NCBI GenBank assembly: GCA_039805705.1
Contig: JBDLTR010000123.1
Coordinates: 1 to 43,846, forward strand
Direction of reading: 5' to 3'
Length of the DNA: 43,846 nt
Source: Pseudomonadota bacterium
Lineage (GTDB): Bacteria; Pseudomonadota; Gammaproteobacteria; Burkholderiales; Burkholderiaceae_C
The position numbers and the translations under genes were made by a program. Within the stretch, counting starts at the first letter, position 1. Every line of letters starts with the position of its first letter. Under the pieces are notes generated by a model. That model did not search any database and was not told where the DNA came from. It was given only the letters and a program-made list of their open reading frames with translations. Positions 16,488-32,525 of this stretch are shown piece after piece.

Positions 16488-19400
16488 TCAGGGGCGCGCC
16501 TGGGCGGCACGGGCCCGCGCCACGGCGGCGGGCAAATCGGTCCATTCGGGCTGTTGCGGCGCGAAGCGCTGGCGCATGTAGCGGGCCAGCTCGACCAGCT
16601 GCCGGTCGTCCAGCGCGTCCTTGAAGGCCGGCATGAAGCCCAGCTCGCGACTGGCGGGCGCCTGCACCCCTTCGAGGATGCTGCGCAGCAGGTTGTCGGG
16701 GCGCGCGCTGTGCAGGTTGCTGTTGAGCGCCAGGGGCACGTTGGTGCCGAGCAAGCGCGGTCCATCGCCGTCGTGGTGGCAAGCGCCACAGGCCTGCGCA
16801 AACAGGCGCTGGGCCGGGCCCAGCAGGGCGGGCTCGGTGCGCGCGGCCTGGGCGATGGCCTCGCGCGCCATCTGCTGGGCCTGCTCGGTCGGGGTGGGCT
16901 GGCCAAAAGACGCCAGGTAGTGCGCCATCGCGCGCAGGTCGGCATCGGGCACGTCGTGCAGATTGCGCACCACCTCGGCCATCGGGCCACCGGCCACGCC
17001 ATGCTGCGGGCTGTGGCCACGGCGCAGGTAATCAAAGAAAGCGGTTTCGGTCCAGGGCACGGGCGAGGGGTGGCGCGCGGTCAGCGAGGGCGCTTCCCAG
17101 CCCTTGACCATGGCCCCACCCAAAAACGCCGGGCCGTCACGCTCGGCGCCCAGGGCATTGCGTTCGGTGTGGCAGGCACCGCAGTGGCCGACCGCGTTCA
17201 CCAGGTATTCGCCGCGCCGCCACAGCGCGGTGCGCGTGGTTTCGGTGTGCGGACGCGGCCCGGGCTCCAGGTACAACGCGTTCCAGCCGGCCAGCAAGGG
17301 GCGCGCGCTGAAAGGGAATTTCAGTTGCGTCTCGGGCGCCTGGGCGCGCACCGGCTGTTGGCGCATCAGGTAGGCGTAGAGCGCGGTGAGGTCGTCGTCG
17401 CTCATGCGGGTGTAGGCGGTGTAGGGGAAGGCCGGGTACAGGTGCCGGCCATCGCGCGAAATGCCTTCGCGCATGGCGCGCTGGAACGCGCTGAAAGACC
17501 AGGCGCCGATGCCGGTCTCGACATCGGGCGTGATGTTGGTGCTGTAGACGGTGCCAAACGGCGTGTCCATGGCCACGCCGCCGGCCAAGGGTGCGCCCCC
17601 GTCGACGGTGTGGCACTGGGCGCAGTTGCCCAGGGCGGCCAGCTGGCGGCCTTTCTCGATGGTTTCGGCGGTGTAGACCGCGGCGGTGCTGGGCGTGACC
17701 GGCGCGATGGCGCTGCGCCCGCCCAGCAGGCCCCACAGCACACCGCCCGCACCGAGCAGCAAAGCGCCGAGCTGGCGCCAGGCCGGGCGGCGCCACGGCC
17801 AGGGCGCATCGGCCGGGGCCTCGCGCAGCGGCGGCGCAGTGGCAGCCGCGTCGGGTGGCGAAGCCAAGGGCTGCGGGTTGAGCGCGGCGCGCACCACCTC
17901 GGGCGTGAAGGGCGGCTGGCGAAAACGCACGCCGGTGGCGTCGAAGATGGCATTGGCGATCGCGGCGGTGCCCGGCACCGACGACGATTCGCCCGAGCCC
18001 ATCGGTGGCTGGTCGGGGCGCGGCATCTGCATGACCTCGATCACCGGCACCTCGCGGAAGCTCAGGATCGGGTAGCTGCCCCATTCGCGGCTGGCCACCA
18101 CACCGGTGTCGGGGTCGACACGCACCTGCTCCTTGAGGGAGCGGCTGGTGGTTTGCAGCACATTGCCGTGGATCTGGTGCGCCACGCCCGCGGGGTTGAT
18201 GGTCAGGCCCGCATCGTGCCCGACCACCACGCGCTTGACGTGCACCTCGCCGGTCTTGCGGTTGACGTCGACATCGGCCACCCACGCCGCCCAGGCGGCG
18301 CCGAAACCGGGCCACTTGCTGTGGATGTAGCGCGCATAGGCCACGCCCTGGCCGTGCAGCCAGTCGCCGGTGGCGCCCTGGCCTTGCGGCTCGGTGTGCG
18401 GGACCCAGCCCGCGCGTTCGGCGGTGGCCTGCAGCAGCTCGCTGGCGCGCGGGTCTTGCAGGTAGCGCAGGCGGTAGGCCACCGGGTCCACGCCCGCGGC
18501 CGTGGCCAATTCGTCGATGTAGGACTCGTGCGCAAACGAGTTGGGCATGGCCGAGACGCCGCGCAGCCACGAGGCGCGCAGCATCGGCGGCATGTCGTTG
18601 ACGGTGACGCGCAGGTCGGCGATGTCGTAGGGCGGACGGGCGGTGCGGTCGCCCATCTCGAACATCTGGGCTTGCGGCTCGACGGTGCGCGTGAGCAGCA
18701 AGGCCAGGGTGGGCGCGGCGTTCGAAGGGTAGGAGGTGGCAAAGTCGTAGGCCGCGATGCCGCCGTCGGCGCGCAGCCCGCCGCGCACCTGCATCAGCTG
18801 GGCCGCGCCCTTGGGCTCCCACAGGTGTTCCTGCTCGCGCGTGAGCTGCACCCGCACCGGCGCACCGACCGCGCGCGAGAGCAGGGCCGCGTCGGCGGCC
18901 ACATCGTCGGCGCAGTTGCGCCCGTAGCAACCGGCCGCCTCCATGCGCACCACATCGACCACCACGTCCTGCACGCCCATCAGGCGCGCCAAGTCCAGGC
19001 GCAGCACATGCGGGTTCTGTGTGCCGGCGTAGACACGCAGCGCGGGCGCACCCGCCTCACCGCGCCAGTCGGCCACCGCGCACGAAGGGCCGATCGAGGC
19101 GTGCATCTGGTAGGGCCAGACATAGCTGCGCTCCATGACCTGGCTGGCGCCGGACAAGGCCTGATCGACATCGCCTTCGTCCACCAGCTGGCGCGGCCGT
19201 GCGGGGTTGTCGCGCAGGGCCTGGGCCAGGTCGTCCAGCGGACGCATGCCCGGCCAGGGTTTCCAGCGCACCTGCAGGCTGGCGCAAGCGGCCTCGGCCT
19301 GTTCCTCGCGTTCAGCGACGATGCCGACAAAGTCGCGGATCACCACCACCGCGCGGATGCCCGGGATGTGCGCGATCGAGCGCTCGTCGACCGATTCGAG

Positions 19401-20141
19401 GGTGTTGCCAATGAAGTCGCCGTGGTCGGCGCCGGCATAGGGCGGCCGCACCACGCGGCCGTGCAGCATGCCGGGCACACGCATGTCGTGCACAAAAACC
19501 GCTTCGCCAAACGCCTTAGCCGGGATGTCCACGCGCGGCTGGCTTTGGCCCACCACGCGGTAGTCGGCCACCGCTTTGACCGGGCTGTCCAAATCGAGCC
19601 GCAGCTCGATGCGGCGGCCTTGCAGCAGATCGCCGTAGCGCACGCCGCGCTCGGCCTCGCCGGCCACCTGCACGAGGCCGGCGTTGACGGTCAGCCCTTC
19701 CACAGGCACGCCCAGCTGCCGGGCGGCTTCGGCCAGCAGCCAGGCGCGCGCCTGCGCGGCGGCCTTGCGCAAGGGCACCGCATGGATCTGGATGGAGGCG
19801 CTGGCGATGGTCGGGCCCTGGTTGGGCGCACGCGCGGTGTCGCCCAGCACCATGTCGACCTGGTCCATGCCCAGGTCCAGTTCGTCGGCCACGATCTGAC
19901 CGAGCGCGGTGCGGATGCCCGTGCCCAGGTCCACATGCCCGTGCAGGCCCAGCGCGGTGCCGTCGTCCCACACCGCGAGCAGCACCTCCACGCCCTCGGC
20001 CGGATTGCCCGCGACGATGGGCGGCTGGCCGGGCGCGGGCGGCGGCGCGGGCGGCGGCTCGCGCGTGATGAGCAGCACGCCATCGGCGCTCAAAAAATCG
20101 GCGCGGGTGCGCAGCCGGGTCAGGCGCTCGCTCCGATTCAT
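16488..20141 (-). CDS. nicB: Molybdopterin hydroxylase large subunit fused to a triheme cytochrome c (NicB-like nicotinate dehydrogenase subunit)
   Basis: XDH-family Mo motifs (GHVDLGTGI, AAGCYGRN, FAHES, GSGE), a hydrophobic linker and three CxxCH motifs (CAQCH, CGACH, CGACH). Operonic with hnr. Substrate is inferred. Confidence 0.82.
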   Translation of the reverse strand: MNRSERLTRLRTRADFLSADGVLLITREPPPAPPPAPGQPPIVAGNPAEGVEVLLAVWDDGTALGLHGHVDLGTGIRTALGQIVADELDLGMDQVDMVLGDTARAPNQGPTIASASIQIHAVPLRKAAAQARAWLLAEAARQLGVPVEGLTVNAGLVQVAGEAERGVRYGDLLQGRRIELRLDLDSPVKAVADYRVVGQSQPRVDIPAKAFGEAVFVHDMRVPGMLHGRVVRPPYAGADHGDFIGNTLESVDERSIAHIPGIRAVVVIRDFVGIVAEREEQAEAACASLQVRWKPWPGMRPLDDLAQALRDNPARPRQLVDEGDVDQALSGASQVMERSYVWPYQMHASIGPSCAVADWRGEAGAPALRVYAGTQNPHVLRLDLARLMGVQDVVVDVVRMEAAGCYGRNCADDVAADAALLSRAVGAPVRVQLTREQEHLWEPKGAAQLMQVRGGLRADGGIAAYDFATSYPSNAAPTLALLLTRTVEPQAQMFEMGDRTARPPYDIADLRVTVNDMPPMLRASWLRGVSAMPNSFAHESYIDELATAAGVDPVAYRLRYLQDPRASELLQATAERAGWVPHTEPQGQGATGDWLHGQGVAYARYIHSKWPGFGAAWAAWVADVDVNRKTGEVHVKRVVVGHDAGLTINPAGVAHQIHGNVLQTTSRSLKEQVRVDPDTGVVASREWGSYPILSFREVPVIEVMQMPRPDQPPMGSGESSSVPGTAAIANAIFDATGVRFRQPPFTPEVVRAALNPQPLASPPDAAATAPPLREAPADAPWPWRRPAWRQLGALLLGAGGVLWGLLGGRSAIAPVTPSTAAVYTAETIEKGRQLAALGNCAQCHTVDGGAPLAGGVAMDTPFGTVYSTNITPDVETGIGAWSFSAFQRAMREGISRDGRHLYPAFPYTAYTRMSDDDLTALYAYLMRQQPVRAQAPETQLKFPFSARPLLAGWNALYLEPGPRPHTETTRTALWRRGEYLVNAVGHCGACHTERNALGAERDGPAFLGGAMVKGWEAPSLTARHPSPVPWTETAFFDYLRRGHSPQHGVAGGPMAEVVRNLHDVPDADLRAMAHYLASFGQPTPTEQAQQMAREAIAQAARTEPALLGPAQRLFAQACGACHHDGDGPRLLGTNVPLALNSNLHSARPDNLLRSILEGVQAPASRELGFMPAFKDALDDRQLVELARYMRQRFAPQQPEWTDLPAAVARARAAQARP

Positions 20142-20647
20142 CGCGGCTCCCCCGCCGCTGGCGCGGCCATGGCCGCCACGGCCTCGGTCACCGCGGCCAA
20201 AATCTCCACATGCGCACCACAGCGGCACAGGTTGCCCGACAAAGCGTCGCGCACCGCTTGCGGACTCGGCCGCGGCTCATGCGCCAGCAAGGCGGCCACC
20301 GTCATGACCATGCCGTTGAGGCAGTAACCGCATTGCGCCGCCTGCGCCGAAATGAAAGCGCTTTGCACCGGGTGCGGCCGCTCGCGCTGGCCCAGGCCTT
20401 CGAGCGTGGTGATCACGCGGGCCTGCACCTGCGCGGCCGGGATCACGCAGGCGCGCGCGGCCACGCCGTCGATGTGCACCGTGCAGGCGCCGCACTGGCC
20501 CAGGCCGCAACCGTATTTGGGACCGTTGAGGCCGAGGTCGTTGCGCAGCACCTGCAGCAAGGTGGCGCTGCGGCCAACGGTCAGCGCATGCGTCTGCCCG
20601 TTGACGTTCAGGGCGATCGCTTGCTCTGTGTAAGGACTGGGGACCAT
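20138..20647 (-). CDS. nicA: 2x[2Fe-2S] small subunit (NicA-like)
   Basis: KYGCGLGQCGACTV, ARAC, QCGYC, NLCRCG; ATGA overlap with the large subunit. Confidence 0.85.
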   Translation of the reverse strand: MVPSPYTEQAIALNVNGQTHALTVGRSATLLQVLRNDLGLNGPKYGCGLGQCGACTVHIDGVAARACVIPAAQVQARVITTLEGLGQRERPHPVQSAFISAQAAQCGYCLNGMVMTVAALLAHEPRPSPQAVRDALSGNLCRCGAHVEILAAVTEAVAAMAAPAAGEPR

Positions 20648-20677
20648 GCGCGCGGGGCCTGGGGTGGGCGCGGAACG

Positions 20678-21430
20678 TCAGACGCTCAGGTAGGCGCGGC
20701 GGATGTCTTCGGCCCGCGCGAGTTCCTCGATGCTGCCTTCGAAGCGGATCTGGCCTTTTTCGAGCACATAGGCGCGGTCGGACACCAGCTCGGCGAAGTG
20801 CAGGTTTTGCTCGGACAGCAAGATGCTCACGCCCTTGGCCTTGAGCTCCAGGATCATGTGGGCCATCTGCTCGACGATCACCGGGGCCACGCCTTCGGAG
20901 GGCTCGTCGAGCAAAACCAGCAAGGGGTTGCCCATGAGGGTGCGGCCCACCGTCAGCATTTGTTGTTCACCACCGCTCATGCGGCCGCCCGGGCGGTCGG
21001 GCATCTCGCCCAGGTTGGGGAAGAGTTTGTAGAGCTCTTGCGGCGTCCAGCTCGGCGCGGCGCTGCCATCGGGCCAGCGGCGCGGCGGCTGGCGGCCCAC
21101 CTCGAGGTTTTCGGTGACGGTCAGGTCGGTGAAGATGCGCCGGTCCTCGGGCACAAAGCCCATGCCCATGCGCGCGATCTGGTGCGGCTGGCTGTCCGAG
21201 ATGTCGTGGTCCATGAAGCGCACCGTGCCCTGACGGCGGTCCATCAGGCCCATCAGGGTCTTGAGCGTGGTGGACTTGCCGGCACCGTTGCGGCCCATCA
21301 GGGCCACCACCTCGCCACGGCGCACCTGCAGCTGGATGTCGTACAGGATTTGCGCCGCACCGTACCAGGCGGCGAGGCCGTGTGCGTCCAGCAGGACGGG
21401 GTCATTGCCTGTCTGCGAAACCGCCGTCAT
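20678..21430 (-). CDS. ABC transporter ATP-binding protein (LivF-like)
   Basis: Walker A GRNGAGKST, MSGGEQQML, LLDEPSEG. Confidence 0.94.
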   Translation of the reverse strand: MTAVSQTGNDPVLLDAHGLAAWYGAAQILYDIQLQVRRGEVVALMGRNGAGKSTTLKTLMGLMDRRQGTVRFMDHDISDSQPHQIARMGMGFVPEDRRIFTDLTVTENLEVGRQPPRRWPDGSAAPSWTPQELYKLFPNLGEMPDRPGGRMSGGEQQMLTVGRTLMGNPLLVLLDEPSEGVAPVIVEQMAHMILELKAKGVSILLSEQNLHFAELVSDRAYVLEKGQIRFEGSIEELARAEDIRRAYLSV

Positions 21431-22221
21431 GCCGCTTGCTCCTGTTGCGCCGCGCCTGGCGCTGCTGACTTTTCAAAGGTTTTGCCGCTGCCGAAATACA
21501 CCTCTTGCACCTTGGGGTGGTCGCGGATGAGTTCGGGTGGGCCTTCGGCGATCAGGCGCCCGCGCGCCAGCACCACCATGCGGTCGGCATAGGCAAAGAC
21601 CACGTCCATGCTGTGCTCGGTGAACAGCACGGCCACGCCGCGCTCGGTCACCAGCTTTTTGGTCAGCGCCATCAGCGCGTTGCGCTCCTTGGGCGCCATG
21701 CCGGCGGTGGGCTCGTCCATGAGCAGCAATTTGGGCCGGTTGGCCATGGCGATCGCCAGCTCCACGCGCTTGACATCGCCGTAGGCGAGCACGCTGCAGG
21801 GCCGGTCGGCCTGCGCGCTCATGCCCACCATGTCGAGCAAATCGAGCGCGTCGCTGCGGCGGTGGCGCGCGGCCGAAGACCACATGGAAAAGAGCTTGCG
21901 GTCTTGCGACATCAGCGCCATCTGCACGTTCTCGACCACCGTCAAGGACGAGAAGGTGGCCGCGATCTGGAAGGTGCGGCCCACGCCCAGGCGCCAGATC
22001 TCGCGCGGTTGCAGGCCCACCAGCTCGGTGCCATCCAGGCGGATCGAACCGCGGTCAGCGCGCAGCTGGCCATTGACCATGTTGAAGGTGGTGGACTTGC
22101 CCGCCCCGTTGGGGCCGATCAGGGCCAGCAGCTCGCCGGCCTTGAGCTCGAAGTGGATGCCATCGACGGCTTTCACGCCACCAAAGGACTTGCCGAGGTT
22201 TTCGACGGTCAACAAACTCAT
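21427..22221 (-). CDS. ABC transporter ATP-binding protein (LivG-like)
   Basis: GPNGAGKST, GRTFQ, LAYGD, LMDEPTAG, EHSMD. Start set to ATG 22221 (MSLLTVENL). Confidence 0.94.
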   Translation of the reverse strand: MSLLTVENLGKSFGGVKAVDGIHFELKAGELLALIGPNGAGKSTTFNMVNGQLRADRGSIRLDGTELVGLQPREIWRLGVGRTFQIAATFSSLTVVENVQMALMSQDRKLFSMWSSAARHRRSDALDLLDMVGMSAQADRPCSVLAYGDVKRVELAIAMANRPKLLLMDEPTAGMAPKERNALMALTKKLVTERGVAVLFTEHSMDVVFAYADRMVVLARGRLIAEGPPELIRDHPKVQEVYFGSGKTFEKSAAPGAAQQEQAA

Positions 22222-24113
22222 GGCGTCACCTCTTTGGCGCCGGCCCGCTGCGCCAGCACTTGCCGGAAAAAGCCGGCGATGCCCTGCGGGAACAGCAGCA
22301 CCAAGATCAAGATCACCGCGCCCAGCAGGGCACGCCAGTATTCGGTGCTGCGCGCCATCACGTCGTGCAGCCAGGTGTAGCTGACCGCGCCCACCACCGG
22401 GCCGGCCAAGGTCTGCAGGCCGCCGAGCAGCACCATCACCAGGCCATCGACCGAGCGGCTGACGTTGAGGGTCTCCGGCGAAATGCTGCCCTTGGAGAAC
22501 GCGAACAAGGCACCGGCCACGCCGGCGAAAGCGCCCGCGATGATGAAGGCCACCCATTGCATGGCCTTGACGTCCATGCCGATGGCGTCGGCGCGCAGCA
22601 CCGAGTCGCGGCCCGCACGCAAGGCATAGCCAAAGGGCGAGAACAGCATGCGCCGCAAGGCCCACAGCGACAGCACCACCAGCACCAGGGTCAGGTAGTA
22701 ATAGGCCGACTTGTTCGACAGCCACTCGGCTGGCCAGACCCCGGTCATGCCGTTGCTGCCGCCCGTGACCTCGTCCCACTGGTAGACCCCGGCCCAGACG
22801 ATCTGGGCGAAGGCCAGCGTCAACATGGCCAGGTACACGCCCGACAGGCGCACGCTGAACCAGCCGACGATGAGCGCCCCCAGCGCCGCCACCAGCGGCG
22901 CCAGCAGCAGGGCCATTTCCATCGACAGGCCGAGCTTGCGCACCACCAGCGCGGCGGCGTAAGCCCCGAGGCCAAAGTAGGCCGCATGGCCAAACGAGTG
23001 CATGCCCGCCGGCCCCATGATGAAGTGCAGGCTGGCGGCGAACAGCGCGGCGATCAGCAGGTCGATGGCCAGCACCACCACATAGGGCGAACCGCTGCTC
23101 ATCGACGGCAGCACCAGCAAGGCCAAGGCGAGCACGGCCACGGCCGTCAGGAAGAGCTTGTCGGCCGGGCGGATCGGCAACTCGGCTTCGCCGAGCGCGC
23201 GCGCGGCCGCTTGCGCCTTGCCCATCAGGCCCCAGGGACGCACCACCAGCACCACCGCCATGACCACGAACTCGGCCACCAGCGTGAGCTTGGAAAACGA
23301 AATCTCGATGCCGAAGACGTTGATCAGGCCCAGCCAGATGCACAAGGCCTTGATCTCCGAAATCAACAAGGCGGCGACGAAGGCGCCCGGGATCGAGCCC
23401 ATGCCGCCGACCACCACCACCACAAAGGCCGAGCCGATGATGTGCAGGTCCATCTCCAGGTTGGCCGGTTCACGCGGCAGCTGCAGTGCGCCGCCCAGCC
23501 CCGCCAGCATCGCGCCCAGCGCGAACACCGCCGTGAACAACCAGGCCTGGTTGACGCCCAGCGCGCCGACCATTTCGCGGTCTTGCGTGGCGGCACGCAC
23601 CAGCGTGCCCCAGCGCGTGCGGGTGAGCAGCAGCCACAGCAGGCCCAGCACGATGGGGCCCACCACGATCAAAAACAGGTCATACACCGGGAACTGTCGT
23701 CCCAGCACATCGACCGAGCCGGTCAGGCCAGGCGCCCGCGGGCCCAGCAATTCCTCGGGCCCAAACAGCCACAGCACGCCATCCTTGATGGCCAAGACCA
23801 AGGCAAAGGTGGCGAGCAATTGAAAGAGCTCGGGCGCGCGGTAGATGCGCCGCAGCAGCAGCATCTCCACCACCACGCCGAGCAAGCCCACCGCACAGGC
23901 GGCCACGGGAACAGCGAGCCAAAAGCCCATCCATTCCAGCCGCGCCACCAGGGCGTAAGCGAAGTAAACCCCCAGCATGTAAAAGGAGCCGTGGGCGAAA
24001 TTCACAATCCGGGTGACACCGAAAATCAGTGACAACCCGGCTGCGACCAAAAACAGCGACGAAGCGCCGGCCAGGCCATTGAGCAACTGGACAACAAAGC
24101 CCGAAAAATTCAT
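22218..24113 (-). CDS. Fused LivH-LivM-type ABC permease
   Basis: N-terminal half with GLSLIFG..RIVNFAHG, C-terminal half with SFGHAAYFGLGAY and YLAMLTLAF; 631 aa. Confidence 0.92.
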   Translation of the reverse strand: MNFSGFVVQLLNGLAGASSLFLVAAGLSLIFGVTRIVNFAHGSFYMLGVYFAYALVARLEWMGFWLAVPVAACAVGLLGVVVEMLLLRRIYRAPELFQLLATFALVLAIKDGVLWLFGPEELLGPRAPGLTGSVDVLGRQFPVYDLFLIVVGPIVLGLLWLLLTRTRWGTLVRAATQDREMVGALGVNQAWLFTAVFALGAMLAGLGGALQLPREPANLEMDLHIIGSAFVVVVVGGMGSIPGAFVAALLISEIKALCIWLGLINVFGIEISFSKLTLVAEFVVMAVVLVVRPWGLMGKAQAAARALGEAELPIRPADKLFLTAVAVLALALLVLPSMSSGSPYVVVLAIDLLIAALFAASLHFIMGPAGMHSFGHAAYFGLGAYAAALVVRKLGLSMEMALLLAPLVAALGALIVGWFSVRLSGVYLAMLTLAFAQIVWAGVYQWDEVTGGSNGMTGVWPAEWLSNKSAYYYLTLVLVVLSLWALRRMLFSPFGYALRAGRDSVLRADAIGMDVKAMQWVAFIIAGAFAGVAGALFAFSKGSISPETLNVSRSVDGLVMVLLGGLQTLAGPVVGAVSYTWLHDVMARSTEYWRALLGAVILILVLLFPQGIAGFFRQVLAQRAGAKEVTP

Positions 24114-24174
24114 AGGGTGTGTGCAGATTTCAACAAGTCAGACATGGGGCGCTCGGTCGCTGTGGGTTTGCCAC

Positions 24175-25389: not shown

Positions 25390-25450
25390 GGTGCTTCCTT
25401 TCAGGGGGTTAAGTTCACTCAAGCATCTTCACACACTGGTCTTTGCCATT

Positions 25451-26035
25451 TCACCTCAAACCGTCCTCACCTTTGATTTCATGGACCTGCAGCCCACCGA
25501 TGCGCGGCAGGGGCCGCCCGCTGTCGGTGACCGCCACCGCGACCACGATCTCGTTGGCCCGCGGCGCATCGGCCACGCGCGCCTCGACCGCGTCAAAGTG
25601 GCTGCGCACAAAAGCCGCATCCTTGTGGCCCAGCGGCACATCGATGGCCGTGCCCATGCCGCCGCGCTTTTTGCTCGAAGGCACCAGGGCCGCGCCCTTT
25701 TCGACCGCCTGGCGCAAGGGCGCGCCCAGTTTGGGGTGCAGGATGGCGGCGGCGTGCTCGAGCTCGCCGGCCTCGCCCACGATGGCGGCCTTGCCATAGC
25801 TCTGCGCCTGGCCTGGGGCGATGCCCAGCGCGCTCACGCATTTTTGACCCAGCAGGGCACCGAGTTCTTCACCGATGGCGATCAACTCGTCGAGGGAGGA
25901 CACATAACGCCCGGCACAGGGGTTCTCGATCACCGCCATGGCCACGGCGCGGCGCGTGGGCGGGTCAATGGCTTGGCCCATTTCGAGGCGGGTTTCGTCG
26001 ACTTGCACCAGCAGTTTTCGGATCTTGGCTGACAT
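25451..26035 (-). CDS. 'Amino acid synthesis' (AA_synth/DUF1185) family protein, paralog 1
   Basis: AVIENPCAGRY, SYGKAAIVGEAGELEHAA, DVPLGHKDAAFVRSHFD, PRANEIVVA; GAGGA RBS. Confidence 0.85.
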   Translation of the reverse strand: MSAKIRKLLVQVDETRLEMGQAIDPPTRRAVAMAVIENPCAGRYVSSLDELIAIGEELGALLGQKCVSALGIAPGQAQSYGKAAIVGEAGELEHAAAILHPKLGAPLRQAVEKGAALVPSSKKRGGMGTAIDVPLGHKDAAFVRSHFDAVEARVADAPRANEIVVAVAVTDSGRPLPRIGGLQVHEIKGEDGLR

Positions 26036-26072
26036 AGGTTTCCTCGCAAGAATGAATGCACAAGAGCGCGCT

Positions 26073-26714
26073 TCAGCGCTGGCCGTCCCATTTGGCAATG
26101 TCGGCGGCTTTGAGCCCACCCACACGGGCATGCACGCGCGCACCGGTGGACATGGCCAGCACATAGACCAGCTCGTCGGGCAGCGGCGCACCGGGCACAC
26201 GTGCTTCGATGGCATCGAAGTGGCTGCGCACATAGCTGGCGTTGATGTGGGTCAGCGGCACATCCAGGGTGCAGCCCGGTGGCCCGACCTTTTTGGTCGA
26301 GGGCACGATGGCCAGCGCATTGCCCGGCTGGCCGGTCTTGGCCTCGCCTTGGCCCTGGGTGTAGGCGGCGCGGTCGCCGCTCCAGCCCAGCAGCTCGCGC
26401 ATGGCGTAGCCGCCCGGCACGTGCCACAGGGCGCCGTGCTCGAGCTCACCGGCGGCGCCGATGATGGCGCCCTTGCCGTAGCTCTGGATCTGTTCGCGCT
26501 CGACCGCCATCGCCGCCAGCAGGCGGTGCGCCATCTGGGTGCCAACGGCGTTGAGGGCCTCCATCATCGGCAGGATGTCAGGCTCGTAGCGGCCCGCGAA
26601 AGGGTTGCCCAGCACCGCCGCGACAAAGCCACGGCGCAAGGGCTGCGCGGCCACGGGCCCAAACTCGTGAAAGATGTCTTCGACGTGGGTGTGGATTCTG
26701 CGGATCTCAATCAT
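26073..26714 (-). CDS. AA_synth/DUF1185 family protein, paralog 2
   Basis: NPFAGRY, SYGKGAIIGAAGELEHGA, DVPLTHINASYVRSHFD; visibly homologous to paralog 1. Confidence 0.85.
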   Translation of the reverse strand: MIEIRRIHTHVEDIFHEFGPVAAQPLRRGFVAAVLGNPFAGRYEPDILPMMEALNAVGTQMAHRLLAAMAVEREQIQSYGKGAIIGAAGELEHGALWHVPGGYAMRELLGWSGDRAAYTQGQGEAKTGQPGNALAIVPSTKKVGPPGCTLDVPLTHINASYVRSHFDAIEARVPGAPLPDELVYVLAMSTGARVHARVGGLKAADIAKWDGQR

Positions 26715-27633
26715 CTAGGGTCTCCAGCGCGCACACCTGCGGGTGTGCGCGCACCGAGGGTGTCGCCGGTTTTGGCGCGGGCGACGCGGGCGTCGACACC
26801 GCCTGGCCTTGGCACGTCAGGACGCAGGCCGTGATGCGGCCCGCGCGCTGCAGGGCCAGGGCATGGTCCAGACCGGCTTGCAAAGCCTGCTGCACCCGCG
26901 ATGGTGCCAGCGTCGGCACCGACACCGTCACCGGGATGGTACCGAGGTCGCTGTCGTCCTTGAGGGTGTTGGCGGGCGCACGCACGATGCCTGGCGCCTG
27001 CACATTGACGGCGTTGGCGATCAGGCTGGCGGCGGCATCCGCCTCGGCGGCCGTGGCCGCCAGCACCGTCACGCTGTCGGCGATGCCCAGCGAGAAACTG
27101 CGCCCCTTCCAACCACTCGTGGCCACGCCCCGCACGCCGCTCGCATGCGCGACATCGAACTGGCCATCGACCTGCAGACCGTCGCGCGCGCCCAGCCATC
27201 GCAAGCTTTCGGGGTCGGCACACAGCCCAATCCGCCACGAGGTGCCGGGCGTCAGGTGCAGGGCGATGTCACCGCCGTTGTTGACCCAGGCACGGGAAAC
27301 GCCCGCAGCCGTGTAGGCCTGCACCAGCTCCTGCGCCACCGCGCCGGCGACCGCCACCATGGGCGTGACATAGGCCGGACGATGCGCCGCAGCAGCCGCC
27401 CACATGCGGCGTGCCACCGGCCCGCGCAGACGGCAGACCCCGTCCACCGCTGCGCGCAGCTGCGGCAATTCGGCCACCAGCTCTTGGAGCAAACCTTGGA
27501 AACGCGCCCAGGCCCGGGCATGCGCGGCCTGCACCGCACGCGGCTCGCCCTCGGCCCCGATGACGATGTCCATCGGGCCATGCTGGAAGTGCAAACGCCC
27601 GTCACCGAGCGAGCGGCATTGCGCGGACACCAT
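26707..27633 (-). CDS. UPF0280 / ApbE-like protein
   Basis: HGPMD, TPMVAVAGAVA, VNNGGDIA, GVATSG, SLGIADSVTV...ADAAAS motifs. ATG overlaps the hnr stop (TGATG). Confidence 0.82.
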   Translation of the reverse strand: MVSAQCRSLGDGRLHFQHGPMDIVIGAEGEPRAVQAAHARAWARFQGLLQELVAELPQLRAAVDGVCRLRGPVARRMWAAAAAHRPAYVTPMVAVAGAVAQELVQAYTAAGVSRAWVNNGGDIALHLTPGTSWRIGLCADPESLRWLGARDGLQVDGQFDVAHASGVRGVATSGWKGRSFSLGIADSVTVLAATAAEADAAASLIANAVNVQAPGIVRAPANTLKDDSDLGTIPVTVSVPTLAPSRVQQALQAGLDHALALQRAGRITACVLTCQGQAVSTPASPAPKPATPSVRAHPQVCALETLDD

Positions 27634-29246
27634 CAGCCGATCAGCGGAGCTTGGCCCATCGGCCAGGGGTTGCTGGGGTCTTGGCGCAGCCACTGCCGGC
27701 GCGTGGGCGCGCCGTCGTTGTGCCAGGCGCCCGTGCGCAGCACATCCTGCAGGCTGCGCACCTCTTGCACATGGCCACCCATGGCGACGTAGTCGTCCAT
27801 GCGCATGCTGAACTCGATCGGGGCGATGATGGCCGGCGTCGGCACCGTGCCAAAGCTGTTGTCGGGCATGCGCATCACATCCACCATGACCGTGATGCCA
27901 CCGCCCGGCCACACATAGGCGGGTGCGCCACCGCAGGTCACATTGATCAGGGCGTCCTTGATGCCGCGCGTGAGCAGCACCGGGTTTTCGGTGGCGCCGG
28001 CACGCAAGCTACCGCCAGCGCCCGCCAGGAACAGCACGGTGGTCATGGACGGTTCGCAGTTTTCGCCGATGCGCTCGACCACCGCCCGCACCGGCGCCGG
28101 CATGGGCTGCTCCTGCGGCACCAGCTGCGCGTCGAGCACATACCAGGCGGCATGCTCACCGGTGGTGGAGGTCATGAGCAAGCGCAGGCCCGGCCAGGCC
28201 ACTTCGGGGTCCCAGCCTTCGATCACCGACAACGGCTCCGAGATCGAGGTGCCGCCCCAGCCGGTGCCCGGATCGGCCACCTGGAAGTAGCGGCCCGGCG
28301 TGGATTTGCGCCCACGCACCTGGATGCCCGAAGGGCGCATGTCCAGGCAACGTCCGGCCTGGTGCTCGCTGAGCACGCCGGTGATGTGGTCATCGACCAC
28401 CACCACCTCGTCCACATGCCCGAAGAGCTGTTTGGCAAAAATGCCCACGGTGGCCGAACCGCAGCCCACACGCATGCGCCGCTCTTCGACGCCGTTGACG
28501 ATGGGGGCGCGACCGGCCTGGATGACGATTTGCGCGCCGTGGTCGATGGAGAGTTCGACCGCCTGCTTGTTGCCGAGCGCCTGCATCATCTCGACGGTGA
28601 TGCGGCCTTCCTTTTTGCTGCCGCCCGTCAGGTGGTGCACGCCACCGAGCGAGAGCATTTGCGAGCCGTATTCGGCGGTGGTCACATGGCCCACCACCTC
28701 GCCCTTGCAGCGCACATTGGCCTGCTCGGGGCCGAGGTAGCGGTCGGTGTCGATCTTCACCTTGAAGCTGCAGTAGCTGAAGATGCCTTCGGTCACCACC
28801 GTCACCATGTCCACGCCCTGCGCCTTGGAACCCACGATGAAGGGCGCGGGCTTGTAGTCCGGGTAGGTCGTCGAAGAGCCCACGCCGGTCACAAACACCT
28901 CGTCGGACAGCAGCAGATCGCCGTCCCAATCGGGGGCGGCCGACACATCCTGGGCCGGGGGGGTGCCGTCTTGCACCACACGGCCACTGAACTGCACCAG
29001 CTTGGCATCGGCGTCGTTCAGGGTTTTGCGCAGCAGCACCACCGGATCGACACGGATCAGCACGCCGCCCTGGTTGGCGTAGCGGTCGCAGGCGCCGCTG
29101 CGGCCCTCGGTGATCTGGCACAGCACCGGGCACGCGTTGCATTCGATCTTGGTGTCGGCCATGCGCTCGCTGCGCGGGCGGGCGCGCTCGAGCACCTGAG
29201 GCCCGCCCTCTCCGGGCATTCCATCTGTTCGGGTGTGCTCTGTCAT
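27633..29246 (-). CDS. hnr: 6-hydroxynicotinate reductase (Fe-S flavoprotein)
   Basis: N-terminal CNACPVLC...GACDRY, TTYPDYKPAP, EYGSQMLSLGG, MRVGCGSA, VVVDDHITG, GWGGT, GAGGSLRAG; clustered with enamidase; GGAGG RBS. Confidence 0.85.
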   Translation of the reverse strand: MTEHTRTDGMPGEGGPQVLERARPRSERMADTKIECNACPVLCQITEGRSGACDRYANQGGVLIRVDPVVLLRKTLNDADAKLVQFSGRVVQDGTPPAQDVSAAPDWDGDLLLSDEVFVTGVGSSTTYPDYKPAPFIVGSKAQGVDMVTVVTEGIFSYCSFKVKIDTDRYLGPEQANVRCKGEVVGHVTTAEYGSQMLSLGGVHHLTGGSKKEGRITVEMMQALGNKQAVELSIDHGAQIVIQAGRAPIVNGVEERRMRVGCGSATVGIFAKQLFGHVDEVVVVDDHITGVLSEHQAGRCLDMRPSGIQVRGRKSTPGRYFQVADPGTGWGGTSISEPLSVIEGWDPEVAWPGLRLLMTSTTGEHAAWYVLDAQLVPQEQPMPAPVRAVVERIGENCEPSMTTVLFLAGAGGSLRAGATENPVLLTRGIKDALINVTCGGAPAYVWPGGGITVMVDVMRMPDNSFGTVPTPAIIAPIEFSMRMDDYVAMGGHVQEVRSLQDVLRTGAWHNDGAPTRRQWLRQDPSNPWPMGQAPLIG

Positions 29247-29298
29247 GCTTTGCCTGCCTCCAATCGCTGTCGTACCGTGTCGACGTGGCGTCAATTTA

Positions 29299-29316
29299 AT
29301 GTAGCAATCTCTACAT
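29299..29316. promoter_or_regulatory. Palindromic operator candidate 1 (ATGTAG-N6-CTACAT)
   Basis: Perfect 6-bp inverted repeat in the AT-rich divergent spacer; second copy 79 bp away. Confidence 0.7.
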
Positions 29317-29377
29317 GCACATGGAGTAAACCCTAAACCAACAGCCTTGCAGTTCGTTTAGCATTCACTCCACCAAC

Positions 29378-29395
29378 GTGTAGCAGCAGCTACAT
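29378..29395. promoter_or_regulatory. Palindromic operator candidate 2 (GTGTAG-N6-CTACAT)
   Basis: Same motif and spacing as 29299-29316. Confidence 0.68.
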
Positions 29396-29450
29396 GAAGC
29401 CATGGGCCGACAGATCCGCTTGCGCCCCATGCGCTGCACCTGGAGTTGAA

Positions 29451-29774
29451 ATGACCCATGTCGTGACCGATGCCTGTGTCCGCTGCAAGTACACCGATTG
29501 CGTGGACGTGTGCCCCGTCGATTGTTTCAAGGAAGGCCCCCACTTCCTGGTCATCGACCCCGACGAGTGCATCGATTGCGCGGTGTGCATCCCGGAATGC
29601 CCGGTCAATGCCATCTTTGCCGAGGAAGACGTGCCGCCCGATCAGCAGCACTTTGTCGCGCTCAACCGCGAGCGCGCCCCCGGCTGGCCCACCATCAGCA
29701 AACGCAAAAGCCCGCTGCCCGATGCCGAGCAGTGGAAAGACCAACGCCACAAGCTCGAGGGCTTGAACGATTGA
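29451..29774 (+). CDS. fdxA: 7Fe-type ferredoxin (FdI/FdxA family)
   Basis: [18 protein letters not shown] and [16 protein letters not shown]; GGAG RBS. Confidence 0.94.
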
Positions 29775-29795
29775 GGATTGGCCAGGGAGACCACC

Positions 29796-30569
29796 ATGAG
29801 CGCATTCATCGAAGAAAAAGTCTTGAGCGTCCGCCACTGGACCGACCGCCTGTTCAGCTTCACCACCACGCGCGACAGCGGCGTGCGGTTTTCCAACGGC
29901 CACTTCACCATGATCGGCCTGCGCGTGAATGACAAACCGCTGCTGCGCGCCTACAGCATCGCCTCGGCCAATTACGAGGAGTACCTGGAGTTTCTGAGCA
30001 TCAAGGTCGAAGACGGTCCACTGACCTCGCGGCTGCAGCACATCCAGGTGGGCGACACCATCATCGTGGGCCGCAAACCCACCGGGACCCTGGTGATCGA
30101 CTACCTGCTGCCCGGCAAGCGCCTGTACCTGCTCGCCACTGGCACTGGCCTGGCGCCTTTCATGAGCATCGTGCGCGACCCGGAAACCTATGAAAAATTC
30201 GAACAGGTGGTGCTGGTGCACGGCGTGCGCACCGTCGACGAGCTGGCCTACCGCGAGCTGCTCACCGACCATTTGCCGCAGCACGAATTCTTGGGCGAGA
30301 TGATCGCGCGCCAGCTGCTGTACTACCCCACGGTCACGCGCGAGGCTTTCGACCACATGGGCCGCGTCACCGAACTGATGGCCTCGGGCAAGCTGTTCAC
30401 CGACCTGAACTTGCCACCGTTGGACCCGGCCACCGACCGTGCGATGATCTGCGGCAGCCCTGCCATGCTCAAAGACCTCAAGCACCTGCTGGAGCAGCGG
30501 GGGTTCAACGAAGGCAACACCTCTCGACCCGGCGATTTCGTGATCGAGCGCGCCTTCGCCGAATCCTGA
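29796..30569 (+). CDS. fpr: Ferredoxin-NADP+ reductase (subclass I)
   Basis: RAYSIAS, GPLTSRL, TGTGLAPF, ICGSP, C-terminal ERAFAE. Confidence 0.95.
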   Translation: MSAFIEEKVLSVRHWTDRLFSFTTTRDSGVRFSNGHFTMIGLRVNDKPLLRAYSIASANYEEYLEFLSIKVEDGPLTSRLQHIQVGDTIIVGRKPTGTLVIDYLLPGKRLYLLATGTGLAPFMSIVRDPETYEKFEQVVLVHGVRTVDELAYRELLTDHLPQHEFLGEMIARQLLYYPTVTREAFDHMGRVTELMASGKLFTDLNLPPLDPATDRAMICGSPAMLKDLKHLLEQRGFNEGNTSRPGDFVIERAFAES

Positions 30570-30636
30570 TGCGGCCGAGGTCTACCGGTACGGCATGGCG
30601 CCCAGTGTTGATGTCACCCCTTTGCACGAGACCTCT

Positions 30637-31317
30637 ATGAGCACCCCTGTCACGCGCACCCCCAAGCGCCGCTCGGCCACCCCCGGTCGCAAACCGGGTG
30701 TGCGCGAACAGGCCGCGCTGGACACACAGGACAGCATCTTGCGCGCGGCCACGCGGGTGTTTGCCAAGCACGGCTTCTCAGGCGGGCGCATCGAGCAGAT
30801 TTCGAAGGCGGCGAAATCGCACGACCGGATGATCTACTACTACTTTGGCAACAAAGAAGGCCTGTTCATCGCGGTCATCGAAGACCTGTACCGCCGCTTC
30901 AACGAGGCCGAGACGGCGCTGAACCTCGATGTGGAGCAGCCCGAACAAGCCCTGGTCGATGTGGTGAGCTTCATCTGGGACTACTACCAAAAGAACCCCG
31001 AGTTCATCACCCTGCTCAACGACGAGAACCTGCACCGCGGCAAGCACATCGCCAAGTCCAGCCGCGCGCAAGACTACTCGTCGCCGGCCATCCAGATCCT
31101 GGAATCGGTGCTGGCCAGCGGCATGAAGAAGAAAGTGTTTCGCGAAGGCCTGTCGGGCCGCGACGTCTACCTGATGATCGCCAGCCTCAATTATTTTTAC
31201 CTCTCCAACCGCTTCACGCTCTCGGCCTTTCTGGGCGAGAAGCTGGAGAGCCCGCCCGCGCTGGCCCACTGGCACCAGGTGGTGGTCGACACCGTGATGC
31301 GGGCCGTCAAACGCTGA
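30637..31317 (+). CDS. TetR-family regulator (RutR/NicS-like)
   Basis: ILRAATRVFAKHGFSG...MIYYYFGNKEGLF HTH, ENLHRG and FYLSNRFTL C-terminal motifs. Start may be 30595. Confidence 0.9.
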   Translation: MSTPVTRTPKRRSATPGRKPGVREQAALDTQDSILRAATRVFAKHGFSGGRIEQISKAAKSHDRMIYYYFGNKEGLFIAVIEDLYRRFNEAETALNLDVEQPEQALVDVVSFIWDYYQKNPEFITLLNDENLHRGKHIAKSSRAQDYSSPAIQILESVLASGMKKKVFREGLSGRDVYLMIASLNYFYLSNRFTLSAFLGEKLESPPALAHWHQVVVDTVMRAVKR

Positions 31318-31337
31318 ATTTTTTCGAGGAGACACCC

Positions 31338-32525
31338 ATGGCAGACGTGGCAAGCAGTGAAAAATCGGGCAAGGTGGTCATCAAGAACATCGGCCTCTTG
31401 CTCTCGGGCGACATCGACCAGCCGATCCTGGACGCCGACACCATCGTGGTGCAAGACGGCCTGATCGCTGCCGTGGGCAAGGAAGCCGATTGCGACACCG
31501 CGCACGCGCGGCAAACCATCGACGCGCGCCGCACCTGCGTAGCGCCCGGCCTGATCGACAGCCATGTGCACCCGGTGTTTGGCGACTGGACGCCGCGGCA
31601 AAACCAGATCGGCTGGATCGACTCGACCATGAACGGCGGCGTCACCACGATGGTCTCGGCCGGCGAGGTGCATCTGCCGGGCCGTCCCAAGGACATCGTC
31701 GGCCTCAAGGCCCTGGCCATCACGGCGCAGCGCGCCTTCGACAACTTCCGTCCCGGTGGCGTCAAGGTCATCGCGGGCGCGCCCGTGATCGAAAAAGGCA
31801 TGACCGAGCAGGACTTCAAAGACCTGGCCGATGCCGGCGTCAAGCTGCTGGGCGAGGTGGGGCTCGGCTCGGTCAAAGCCGGTGAAGAGGCCCAGACCAT
31901 GGTCGCCTGGGCGCGCAAGTACGGCATCCAGAGCACCATCCACACCGGTGGGCCGTCGATCCCCGGCTCCGGCCTGATCGACAAAGACGTGATCCTGGAG
32001 GCCGATGCCGACGTGATCGGCCACATCAACGGTGGCCACACGGCGCTGCCCTGGCGCCATGTGTGCGAGCTGTGCGAGAAATCCTCGCGTGCGATCGAGA
32101 TCGTGCACAACGGCAACGAGAAAATCGCCATCGAGGCGGCACGCGCGGCGATCGAGCTCAAGTGCCCGCACCGCGTGATCCTGGGCACCGACGGCCCGGC
32201 CGGCTCGGGCGTGCAGCCGCTGGGCATGCTGCGCCTGATCGCCCTGATCTCCAGCTTCGCCAACATCCCAGCCGAGATCGTCTTCGGCTTCGCCACCGGC
32301 AACACGGCGCGCATCCGCGAGCTCAACTGCGGCCTGATCGAAGTCGGGCGCGCCGCCGACTTCGTCTTCATGGACAGGGCCCAACACACGGCGGGCAAAA
32401 CCTTGCTCGAGAGCGTGCAGCTGGGTGACATCCCGGGCATCGGCATGGTCATGATCGACGGCCTGGTGCGCTGTGGCCGCAGCCGCAACACGCCACCGGC
32501 GACCGAAATCCCCGTCATCGTCTGA
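31338..32525 (+). CDS. ena: Enamidase (amidohydrolase superfamily)
   Basis: IDSHVH, GDWTPRQ, SAGEVH.PGRP, GEVGLG, IHTGG, GHINGG, GTDGP metal-ligand pattern; GAGGAG RBS; in the hnr cluster. Confidence 0.87.
   Translation: MADVASSEKSGKVVIKNIGLLLSGDIDQPILDADTIVVQDGLIAAVGKEADCDTAHARQTIDARRTCVAPGLIDSHVHPVFGDWTPRQNQIGWIDSTMNGGVTTMVSAGEVHLPGRPKDIVGLKALAITAQRAFDNFRPGGVKVIAGAPVIEKGMTEQDFKDLADAGVKLLGEVGLGSVKAGEEAQTMVAWARKYGIQSTIHTGGPSIPGSGLIDKDVILEADADVIGHINGGHTALPWRHVCELCEKSSRAIEIVHNGNEKIAIEAARAAIELKCPHRVILGTDGPAGSGVQPLGMLRLIALISSFANIPAEIVFGFATGNTARIRELNCGLIEVGRAADFVFMDRAQHTAGKTLLESVQLGDIPGIGMVMIDGLVRCGRSRNTPPATEIPVIV

What the first reader, a model, noticed from the sequence alone, without database searches (positions are those of the whole stretch)
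16488..32525. Hybrid nicotinate catabolic locus: aerobic-type NicAB joined to reductive Hnr/enamidase, with no recognisable lower pathway
Seen: divergent operons hnr-UPF0280-2xDUF1185-ABC-nicA-nicB and fdx-fpr-tetR-ena. Known: Pseudomonas putida NicAB (Mo plus cytochrome c) normally feeds the oxygenase maleamate route (NicC, X, D, F, E). Hnr and enamidase belong to the Eubacterium barkeri fermentation, which continues via Hgd, Mgm, Mii, Dmd and Dml. Related hnr/ena clusters are known in Proteobacteria, and Azorhizobium caulinodans converts nicotinate via tetrahydro-oxonicotinate to glutarate. I see neither lower pathway in this window. Inference: an oxygenase-independent respiratory route whose steps after 2-formylglutarate are enzymatically unassigned. 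This is the best candidate for an incompletely described system here.
Basis: partly seen in the sequence, partly recalled or inferred. Interest (0 to 1): 0.82.

Follow-up and report, generated by a model that had tools for sequence, protein, structure and literature searches.

The report
Known-type reductive vitamin B3 breakdown cluster
This is an intact copy of a widespread, already described bacterial gene cluster that likely takes up vitamin B3 (nicotinate) and opens its ring by hydroxylating, reducing and hydrolysing it; the product is likely finished via glutarate by ordinary genes found elsewhere in this genome, and only three small helper genes remain without a tested function.

Summary
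All 14 genes are present and intact. But the 'hybrid' is not new: it is the Azorhizobium/Bradyrhizobium-type nicotinate cluster already in print (PMC3511419), found in 49 of 301 genomes of this family, against 3 of 301 for the oxygenase gene nicC. Cytochrome-c NicB is one family shared by both routes. The lower pathway is missing only from the window: this 63%-complete genome encodes glutaryl-CoA dehydrogenase, a GabD-type semialdehyde dehydrogenase and CoA-transferases, and three relatives' lineages carry such genes beside the cluster. Oxygenase-free does not mean anoxic: A. caulinodans does not catabolise nicotinate microaerobically (PMC3357923). What stays open: the step from 2-formylglutarate to glutarate semialdehyde (best candidate: the DUF1185 pair; clade b accompanies enamidase in 83 of 83 loci) and the ApbE-fold UPF0280 partner of Hnr (48 of 48 in Hnr genomes). 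Added here: a candidate TetR operator, TGTAG-N6-CTACA (76 of 81 TetR loci, 0 of 17 MarR loci). The scan reported this cluster type and the UPF0280 idea several times before on other DNA. New member of a known kind; modest interest.

The parts
16488..20141 (-). nicB, nicotinate dehydrogenase large subunit: Mo-cofactor domains, a hydrophobic segment at residues ~791-807, three c-type haem motifs (1217 aa)
   Evidence: Pfam; CxxCH x3; hydrophobic segment; 54-61% identical to NicB of four complete maleamate clusters
20138..20647 (-). nicA, 2x[2Fe-2S] small subunit (169 aa)
   Evidence: Pfam Fer2/Fer2_2; eight Cys
20678..25389 (-). Liv-type ABC importer: binding protein 24175-25389, fused permease 22218-24113, ATPases 21427-22221 and 20678-21430; likely nicotinate uptake
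   Evidence: Pfam; conserved in the cluster; substrate inferred from context
25451..26035 (-). DUF1185 clade b (194 aa); travels with enamidase; candidate for processing the enamidase product
   Evidence: 2qtp (SPO0826) E 6e-88; tree; 83 of 83 Ena loci; 46 of 301 genomes
26073..26714 (-). DUF1185 clade a (213 aa), His-rich type
   Evidence: 3byq (BB2672) E 3.6e-50; tree; 13 of 14 hydantoinase-type loci and 79 of 83 Ena loci
26707..27633 (-). UPF0280/COG2122 protein with ApbE fold (308 aa); inseparable partner of hnr, candidate maturation factor
   Evidence: NF003322; PF27030; model pLDDT 91.5; fold matches; co-occurrence
27633..29246 (-). hnr, 6-hydroxynicotinate reductase homologue (537 aa) lacking the N-terminal 2x[4Fe-4S] domain of anaerobe-type homologues
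29300..29315 (.). palindrome TGTAG-N6-CTACA, candidate TetR operator 1 (54 nt upstream of hnr)
29379..29394 (.). palindrome TGTAG-N6-CTACA, candidate TetR operator 2 (57 nt upstream of fdx)
29451..29774 (+). FdxA-type 7Fe ferredoxin (107 aa); likely electron donor to Hnr
   Evidence: NF045490 164.8 bits, cut-off 135; aligns to the N-terminal domain of an anaerobe-type Hnr
29796..30569 (+). fpr, ferredoxin-NADP+ reductase (257 aa)
   Evidence: present in 81 of 103 loci
30637..31317 (+). TetR-family regulator (226 aa; alternative start 30595)
   Evidence: Pfam TetR_N + TetR_C_29
31338..32525 (+). ena, enamidase (395 aa)
   Evidence: 2vun E 7.6e-108, full length

Best explanation
This is an Azorhizobium-type nicotinate catabolic cluster: the ABC system likely imports nicotinate, NicAB likely hydroxylates it to 6-hydroxynicotinate using water and passes electrons through its c-type haems to respiration, Hnr likely reduces the ring with electrons from NADPH via Fpr and the ferredoxin, and enamidase likely opens it to 2-formylglutarate and ammonia. 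The 2-formylglutarate is then predicted to lose CO2 to give glutarate semialdehyde, a step most likely speeded by the DUF1185 proteins (inferred, untested). Unlinked general-purpose enzymes (GabD-type dehydrogenase, succinate:glutarate CoA-transferase, glutaryl-CoA dehydrogenase with ETF) would finish the route to crotonyl-CoA and acetyl-CoA. UPF0280 is likely the maturation factor of Hnr (flavin attachment is the leading guess), and TetR likely represses both arms at the two palindromes. Shown here: gene content, homologies, co-occurrence, presence of lower-pathway genes. Inferred: every catalytic step in this organism.
For: Ena vs solved enamidase E 7.6e-108. NicB 54-61% identical to NicB in full nicC/X/D/E/F clusters. 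An isochorismatase-family gene sits in 38 of 103 related loci; its representative passes the nicotinamidase model (187.9 bits, cut-off 174), pointing to nicotinamide/nicotinate. Same cluster type published for A. caulinodans, B. japonicum, R. palustris and strain SG-6C, which mineralised nicotinate via 6-hydroxynicotinate (PMC3511419, passages seen). Own genome: GcdH at C52 (PDB 3gnc E 1.5e-217), SSADH at C60 (TIGR01780 693 bits, cut-off 646), CoA-transferases at C120 and C86 whose best model is succinate-glutarate CoA-transferase; the C120 protein is 67-71% identical to cluster-linked CoA-transferases. Physical linkage in relatives: gcdH-CoAT-etfB-etfA beside ena in L104; gcdH-CoAT-ALDH behind a LysR gene next to nicB in G145; ALDH and CoAT inside the Pusillimonas clusters L046/L047; etfB beside the cluster in 13 of 103 loci. 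0 of 96 proteobacterial Hnr carry an N-terminal CxxCxxCxxxC, against 12 of 15 distant homologues, and the window's Fdx aligns to that missing domain.
Against: No activity, expression or growth data for this organism. GcdH is near-universal in the family (75 of 78 Hnr genomes, but also 70 of 80 Hnr-negative genomes), so its presence is permissive, not specific. The CoA-transferases score below the curated cut-off (508-562 vs 750 bits), and the C120 one sits in another acyl-CoA operon. Lower-pathway genes other than ETF are linked in only a handful of the loci examined. The cluster-linked ALDH clade is in only 46 of 78 Hnr genomes and not found in this genome (best 42%). The operator is absent near gcdH in 10 of 10 genomes (against 92), so the lower genes are not visibly co-regulated by this TetR. 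The ferredoxin is in only 52 of 103 loci. UPF0280 lacks the ApbE catalytic-His loop and Hnr has no D-x-x-[ST]-G-A-[ST] motif (sequence; motif from PMC12052999).
Confidence: 0.8

Rival explanations
1. The pathway is as described, but DUF1185 is not a decarboxylase: 2-formylglutarate, a beta-oxo acid, decarboxylates on its own, and the DUF1185 proteins instead hydrolyse the enamine/imine left after lactam opening or turn over the hydrate/lactol of the aldehyde.
For: DUF1185 clade tracks the ring-opening enzyme (b with Ena 83 of 83; a with HyuAB 13 of 14). The fold is chorismate-mutase-like (PMC2954203, passages seen), as is the enamine deaminase RidA (recalled). The homologue TgnF is reported only to stimulate succinate-semialdehyde oxidation (PMC7913881, passage seen, citing a paper I could not read).
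Against: E. barkeri enamidase is described as bifunctional, releasing ammonia itself (PMC9304392, passage seen), so an extra enamine hydrolase should be dispensable beside Ena. Ena/Hyu changes only three times on the Hnr tree, so the association rests on few independent events.
Confidence: 0.3
2. The locus mainly serves to free nitrogen (and some respiratory electrons) from nicotinate; the five-carbon skeleton is only incidentally used, which is why no lower genes are kept in the cluster or its regulon.
For: The cluster ends at the ammonia-releasing step; operator sites are confined to the locus; amtB lies next to ena in the window; A. caulinodans uses nicotinate as a nitrogen source (title of reference 33 in PMC3357923).
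Against: SG-6C grows on nicotinate as sole carbon source with this cluster type (PMC3511419). Three lineages have glutarate genes beside the cluster. amtB was not among the recurrent neighbour genes annotated from related loci.
Confidence: 0.1
3. UPF0280 is not a flavin transferase but a sulfur- or metal-cluster-handling partner of Hnr, as its only genetically studied relatives (COG2122) serve the DUF39/ferredoxin homocysteine pathway.
For: Closest solved fold is DVU1097 (Z 20.2) ahead of true ApbEs (Z 13.8-16.4). [quoted passage not shown] His loop missing.
Against: No invariant cysteine in 70 aligned Hnr-linked UPF0280 proteins; the GGD, ATSG and SVTVLA..ADA motifs shared with ApbE are kept; E. 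barkeri Hnr has a covalent flavin (recalled from Alhapel 2006, not read).
Confidence: 0.3
4. In this organism 6-hydroxynicotinate from NicAB is drained by an oxygenase route encoded on contig C136 (nicX/nicD/nicF-like genes and two flavin monooxygenases), making it a true two-route hybrid.
For: C136 carries NicX-, NicD- and NicF-like genes at 42-43% and two FAD monooxygenases.
Against: Those monooxygenases are only 32-33% identical to NicC, whereas family NicC orthologues are 59-60%; no nicE hit; C136 has its own two Mo-hydroxylases, so it likely serves another pyridine.
Confidence: 0.05
5. The product is handled by an Eubacterium barkeri-type lower branch (Hgd, Hmd, Mgm, Mii, Dmd, Dml) in the unassembled part of the genome.
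For: The assembly is 63% complete, so absence cannot be shown.
Against: No PrpF/Mii-family match in the assembly; a PrpF query hit only its own source locus among the Hnr loci mapped.
Confidence: 0.02

Closest known systems
Proteobacterial nicotinate degradation cluster of Azorhizobium caulinodans ORS571 (AZC_2790-2804), Bradyrhizobium japonicum (blr3818-3830), Rhodopseudomonas palustris HaA2 and Bradyrhizobiaceae SG-6C (PMC3511419, citing Alhapel 2006 and Kitts 1992)
   Same: Dehydrogenase, Hnr, enamidase, ABC transporter and conserved genes of unknown function in one cluster; no lower pathway in the cluster; glutarate route proposed.
   Different: Betaproteobacterial layout with divergent fdx-fpr-tetR-ena arm and a TetR (most alphaproteobacterial loci examined have MarR); two DUF1185 paralogues. 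I could not align against the named loci themselves.
Eubacterium barkeri nicotinate fermentation (Ndh, Hnr, Ena, Hgd ... Dml)
   Same: Enamidase homologous over the full length; Hnr family; an anaerobe-type locus L151 has the same ena-hnr-UPF0280-DUF1185b core.
   Different: Cytochrome-c NicAB instead of the four-subunit Se/FAD dehydrogenase (recalled); Hnr without the N-terminal 2x[4Fe-4S] domain; no Mii-family gene found.
Pseudomonas putida nic (maleamate) cluster
   Same: NicAB architecture and family.
   Different: No nicC or nicE orthologue found in this assembly; nicX/D/F-like genes only at 42-43% in an unlinked cluster; ring opened without oxygenases.
Trigonelline pathway TgnF/TgnE (Acinetobacter baylyi) and 7-hydroxycoumarin HcdD (Pseudomonas mandelii)
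   Same: DUF1185 protein beside heterocycle-opening enzymes; TgnF stimulates semialdehyde oxidation (PMC7913881, passage seen).
ApbE/Ftp/FmnB flavin transferases and COG2122 (DVU1097, MA1715)
   Same: Fold (Z 13.8-20.2) and three shared motifs.
   Different: No lipoprotein-type N-terminus evident, catalytic-His loop absent, no canonical target motif in Hnr.

Membership tests
Azorhizobium-type (Hnr/Ena) proteobacterial nicotinate cluster | Mo-dependent nicotinate dehydrogenase genes in the cluster | tested here: met
Azorhizobium-type (Hnr/Ena) proteobacterial nicotinate cluster | 6-hydroxynicotinate reductase homologue | tested here: met
   named relatives at 76-91%; 41% to anaerobe-type Hnr; the E. 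barkeri sequence itself was not available
Azorhizobium-type (Hnr/Ena) proteobacterial nicotinate cluster | enamidase homologue | tested here: met
   2vun E 7.6e-108, residues 11-390
Azorhizobium-type (Hnr/Ena) proteobacterial nicotinate cluster | ABC transporter and conserved genes of unknown function | tested here: met
Azorhizobium-type (Hnr/Ena) proteobacterial nicotinate cluster | glutarate-route enzymes in the genome | tested here: met
   GcdH; SSADH above cut-off, CoA-transferases below cut-off
Azorhizobium-type (Hnr/Ena) proteobacterial nicotinate cluster | nicotinate converted via THON and glutarate in vivo | not testable with these tools
   needs growth and metabolite data
P. putida maleamate (nic) pathway | NicAB with cytochrome c domains | tested here: met
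P. putida maleamate (nic) pathway | NicC orthologue and nicX/D/F/E linked to nicAB | tested here: not met
   none in the window; best NicC hits 31-33% elsewhere, no nicE hit; none at E<=1e-90; assembly 63% complete, so genome-wide absence is not shown
E. barkeri fermentation pathway | Hgd, Hmd, Mgm, Mii, Dmd, Dml | tested here: inconclusive
   Mii/PrpF family not found; four B12-binding domains not examined further; no Hgd/Mgm reference sequence; incomplete genome
ApbE flavin transferases (for UPF0280) | ApbE fold | tested here: met
ApbE flavin transferases (for UPF0280) | catalytic His loop (HxxDP) | tested here: not met
   segment deleted in profile alignment to a canonical ApbE
ApbE flavin transferases (for UPF0280) | target with D-x-x-[ST]-G-A-[ST] motif | tested here: not met
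   absent from the Hnr sequence; conserved S/T positions listed
ApbE flavin transferases (for UPF0280) | FMN transfer from FAD | not testable with these tools
   needs assay

The most novel reading that the evidence does not exclude
The three small genes complete the pathway: the DUF1185 pair is the missing 2-formylglutarate decarboxylase (giving PF06684 its first catalytic function, with clade b matched to enamidase and clade a to ATP-dependent lactamases), UPF0280 is a His-less, motif-independent cytoplasmic flavin transferase dedicated to Hnr, a structurally unclassified reductase whose ferredoxin domain has been split off as a separate gene, and the whole is run by a TetR at TGTAG-N6-CTACA.
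Probability: 0.25. Interest if true: 0.62.

Novelty: new member of a known kind. Interest (0 to 1): 0.3.

Why it matters
It shows that the reductive, oxygenase-free route is the usual way this large family of soil and freshwater bacteria handles vitamin B3 (49 vs 3 of 301 genomes), which bears on vitamin turnover and on the fate of neonicotinoid breakdown products. It narrows the long-open gap in the Azorhizobium pathway to one step and names testable candidates (DUF1185a/b, both with solved structures of close homologues), a candidate maturation factor for an enzyme with no solved structure, and an operator sequence. The locus itself is not surprising.

Tried and rejected
Complex prediction of Hnr with UPF0280 plus FAD and Mg: no verdict, score 0.00, mark 0.32; no evidence either way. 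Hnr structure: model pLDDT 89.4 but no PDB match by sequence, Foldseek (none at E<=0.001) or VIA-align (best Z 4.0); this does not prove a new fold. Hnr-UPF0280 fusions: 17 longer hits; the seven read look like frameshift read-throughs with out-of-frame stretches, so I rejected them as fusion evidence. GcdH co-occurrence as support: rejected after the control (75/78 vs 70/80). One dedicated aldehyde dehydrogenase for the pathway: rejected (46/78). Genome-wide operator scan for hidden regulon members: one-mismatch hits were fewer than the reversed-pattern control, and none lay near gcdH. DUF1185b in two Hnr-negative genomes: both lie at contig ends in truncated copies of the operon. CsiD route for glutarate: not found. 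nirS not found, narG present. Sigma-70 scan of the divergent gap: nothing. Metagenome scan for anaerobe-type loci gave only two full Hnr loci among five. Primary papers (Alhapel 2006, Kitts 1989 and 1992, Perchat 2018, Jimenez 2008, Buckmiller 1991) are not held, so I cannot say whether they already proposed roles for DUF1185 or UPF0280. In the held library, searches listed no paper that, in the listings and passages I saw, ties DUF1185 or UPF0280 to nicotinate; supplements were not read.
Full report
Setting. The window is contig C123 of a 1.67-Mb, 63%-complete genome; the closest named Hnr relatives are Hydrogenophaga at 88-89%. GC content across the locus (0.63-0.71) is like the rest of the window.

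Observation. All fourteen genes are intact and tightly spaced in two divergent arms. NicB has Mo-cofactor domains and three CxxCH motifs. Ena matches the solved E. barkeri enamidase over residues 11-390 at E 7.6e-108. The two DUF1185 genes correspond to the two solved members of the family, SPO0826 (E 6e-88) and BB2672 (E 3.6e-50). UPF0280 passes NF003322. Hnr has no curated model; its assignment rests on database names of close relatives and on context. The window holds no maleamate or glutarate genes.

Is the hybrid new? No. PMC3511419 (abstract, Fig. 4 legend and passages of the pathway section seen) describes a cluster with the first three enzymes, an ABC transporter and two conserved unknown genes in A. 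caulinodans, B. japonicum, R. palustris and SG-6C, states that A. caulinodans proceeds via glutarate, and shows SG-6C mineralising nicotinate. Hnr is in 49 of 301 family genomes, 33 of 401 phylum genomes and 26 plasmids; nicC orthologues are in 3 of 301 family genomes, none Hnr-positive. Of 105 Hnr-centred loci mapped (80, 5 plasmids, 20 chosen for diversity), 103 had room downstream: 73 show NicAB, 15 a FAD-type CoxMSL dehydrogenase; 83 show enamidase, 14 an ATP-dependent hydantoinase. A tree of 11 full-length NicB proteins interleaves Hnr-linked and maleamate-linked copies and rejects one Hnr clade (p-AU 3.8e-56). So NicAB is a shared front end, and the dehydrogenase and ring opener are exchangeable modules around a fixed hnr-UPF0280-DUF1185 core, which also occurs in an anaerobe-type locus (L151).

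Substrate. A nicotinamidase-type gene lies in 38 of 103 loci (representative above cut-off). With NicB and Ena orthology this makes nicotinate the likely substrate. It was not tested.

Lower pathway. The genome encodes glutaryl-CoA dehydrogenase (C52; E 1.5e-217 to PDB 3gnc), a GabD-type semialdehyde dehydrogenase (C60, above cut-off) and two CoA-transferases whose best model is succinate-glutarate CoA-transferase, below cut-off. GcdH presence is not specific (75 of 78 Hnr genomes, 70 of 80 Hnr-negative). More telling is linkage in three lineages: gcdH-CoAT-etfB-etfA beside ena (L104), gcdH-CoAT-ALDH next to nicB (G145) and ALDH plus CoAT inside the Pusillimonas clusters. These match the order I recall from Kitts 1992 (decarboxylation, oxidation to glutarate, CoA transfer, glutaryl-CoA dehydrogenase; recalled, not read). 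Mii/PrpF and CsiD families were not found in the assembly. Only the decarboxylation lacks an obvious enzyme.

DUF1185. At least one copy is in 102 of 103 loci. Two clades are fully supported. Clade b is in 83 of 83 enamidase loci; clade a in 13 of 14 hydantoinase loci; the Ena/Hyu label changes only three times on the Hnr tree, so independence is limited. Clade b is in 46 of 301 genomes: 44 Hnr-positive and two truncated operons. PMC2954203 (passages seen) gives a chorismate-mutase-like hexamer with a His-lined cavity, did not mention nicotinate, and guessed amino-acid metabolism from the neighbouring ABC genes. PMC7913881 (passages seen) reports that the homologue TgnF stimulates semialdehyde oxidation and that HcdD showed no effect. 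I infer that DUF1185 acts on the enamidase product; decarboxylase is my lead, enamine or hydrate turnover the rival.

UPF0280. It is in 48 of 301 genomes, all Hnr-positive; the one Hnr genome without it has hnr at a contig end. It follows hnr within 200 nt in 102 of 103 loci. The model (pLDDT 91.5) has the ApbE fold (PF27030) and keeps the GGD, ATSG and ADA motifs but lacks the His loop; Hnr lacks the canonical target motif given in PMC12052999 (passages seen). PMC5764234 (passages seen) shows the related COG2122 is needed for homocysteine synthesis and doubts flavin binding. PMC8238504 (passages seen) does not mention UPF0280. Dedicated Hnr helper is well supported; flavin transfer is about even odds.

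Electron supply. Anaerobe-type Hnr homologues mostly begin with a 2x[4Fe-4S] domain (12 of 15), proteobacterial ones never do (0 of 96), and the window's ferredoxin aligns to that domain. Two distant homologues carry NAD(P)-linked reductase domains. Fpr is in 81 and Fdx in 52 of 103 loci. NADPH to Fpr to Fdx to Hnr, pulled by hydrolysis, is the likely chain (inference).

Regulation. TGTAG-N6-CTACA occurs twice, perfectly, in the divergent gap (chance mean 0.16 matches for the window at one mismatch). With one mismatch it is upstream of hnr in 76 of 81 TetR loci and 0 of 17 MarR loci, with 21 other matches in 1.98 Mb, nine of them about 65 nt before ena. It is upstream of hnr in 9 of 10 whole genomes and near gcdH in none. 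Kin share the motif, so the counts overstate independence.

Oxygen. The ring chemistry needs no oxygenase, but NicB's haems need a respiratory sink. PMC3357923 (passage seen) states that A. caulinodans does not measurably catabolise nicotinate in microaerobic culture. This genome has narG; nirS was not found. Anoxic use is untested.

Verdict. Real, intact, ordinary for its family: a new member of a known kind. Earlier notes of this scan reached the same cluster type, the hydantoinase swap and the ApbE-fold idea on other genomes. Interest 0.3.

Noticed in passing
G000:C136:13700-29000 (L147): A second pyridine-catabolic cluster in the same genome: IclR, NicF-like amidase, two FAD monooxygenases (32-33% to NicC), two CoxMSL-type Mo-hydroxylases with CoxG, NicD-like and NicX-like genes (42-43%), TctC transporter. 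Substrate unknown; may funnel another pyridine carboxylate to 2,5-dihydroxypyridine.
   Followed up: partly
G000:C56:91-6674 (L137): A third DUF1185 gene sits with a Zn-alcohol dehydrogenase, glyoxalase-type dioxygenase, FAD monooxygenase, FAA hydrolase, TctC and GntR, resembling the hcd 7-hydroxycoumarin genes of PMC7913881.
   Followed up: partly
L112-L115, L119, L123-L133: 14 of 103 Hnr loci have an ATP-dependent hydantoinase pair (HyuAB) in place of enamidase, mostly with a FAD-type CoxMSL dehydrogenase and MarR.
   Followed up: partly
P0129, P0137: Anaerobe-type Hnr homologues of about 970-980 aa carry an NAD(P)-linked Pyr_redox_2/Fer4_20 module fused or inserted in the chain.
   Followed up: no
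L050, L086, L156, L046, L115: A Rieske oxygenase recurs beside the cluster in several lineages, in L050/L086 with a second binding protein preceded by a one-mismatch operator; it may feed an N- or O-methylated pyridine into the route.
   Followed up: no
window:39250-42978: DoxX, DUF2063 DNA-binding protein, DUF692/MbnB-TglH-ChrH family enzyme, a short upstream ORF and an NrsF anti-sigma factor: looks like a DUF692 RiPP (bufferin-like) operon; label recalled, not tested.
   Followed up: no
window:32597-36912: amtB, a Gcw_chp outer-membrane protein and a ComM/Mg-chelatase-like ATPase flank the cluster; amtB is convergent with ena.
   Followed up: no
window:829-4367: CoA-acylating methylmalonate-semialdehyde dehydrogenase (above cut-off) and a GMC oxidoreductase 12 kb from the cluster; not among the recurrent neighbours of related Hnr loci.
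   Followed up: partly
L176, L177 (G148, G158): Operon halves with DUF1185b, ABC genes and (in L177) nicAB end at contig edges, so the family count of 49 Hnr genomes is a lower bound.
   Followed up: yes
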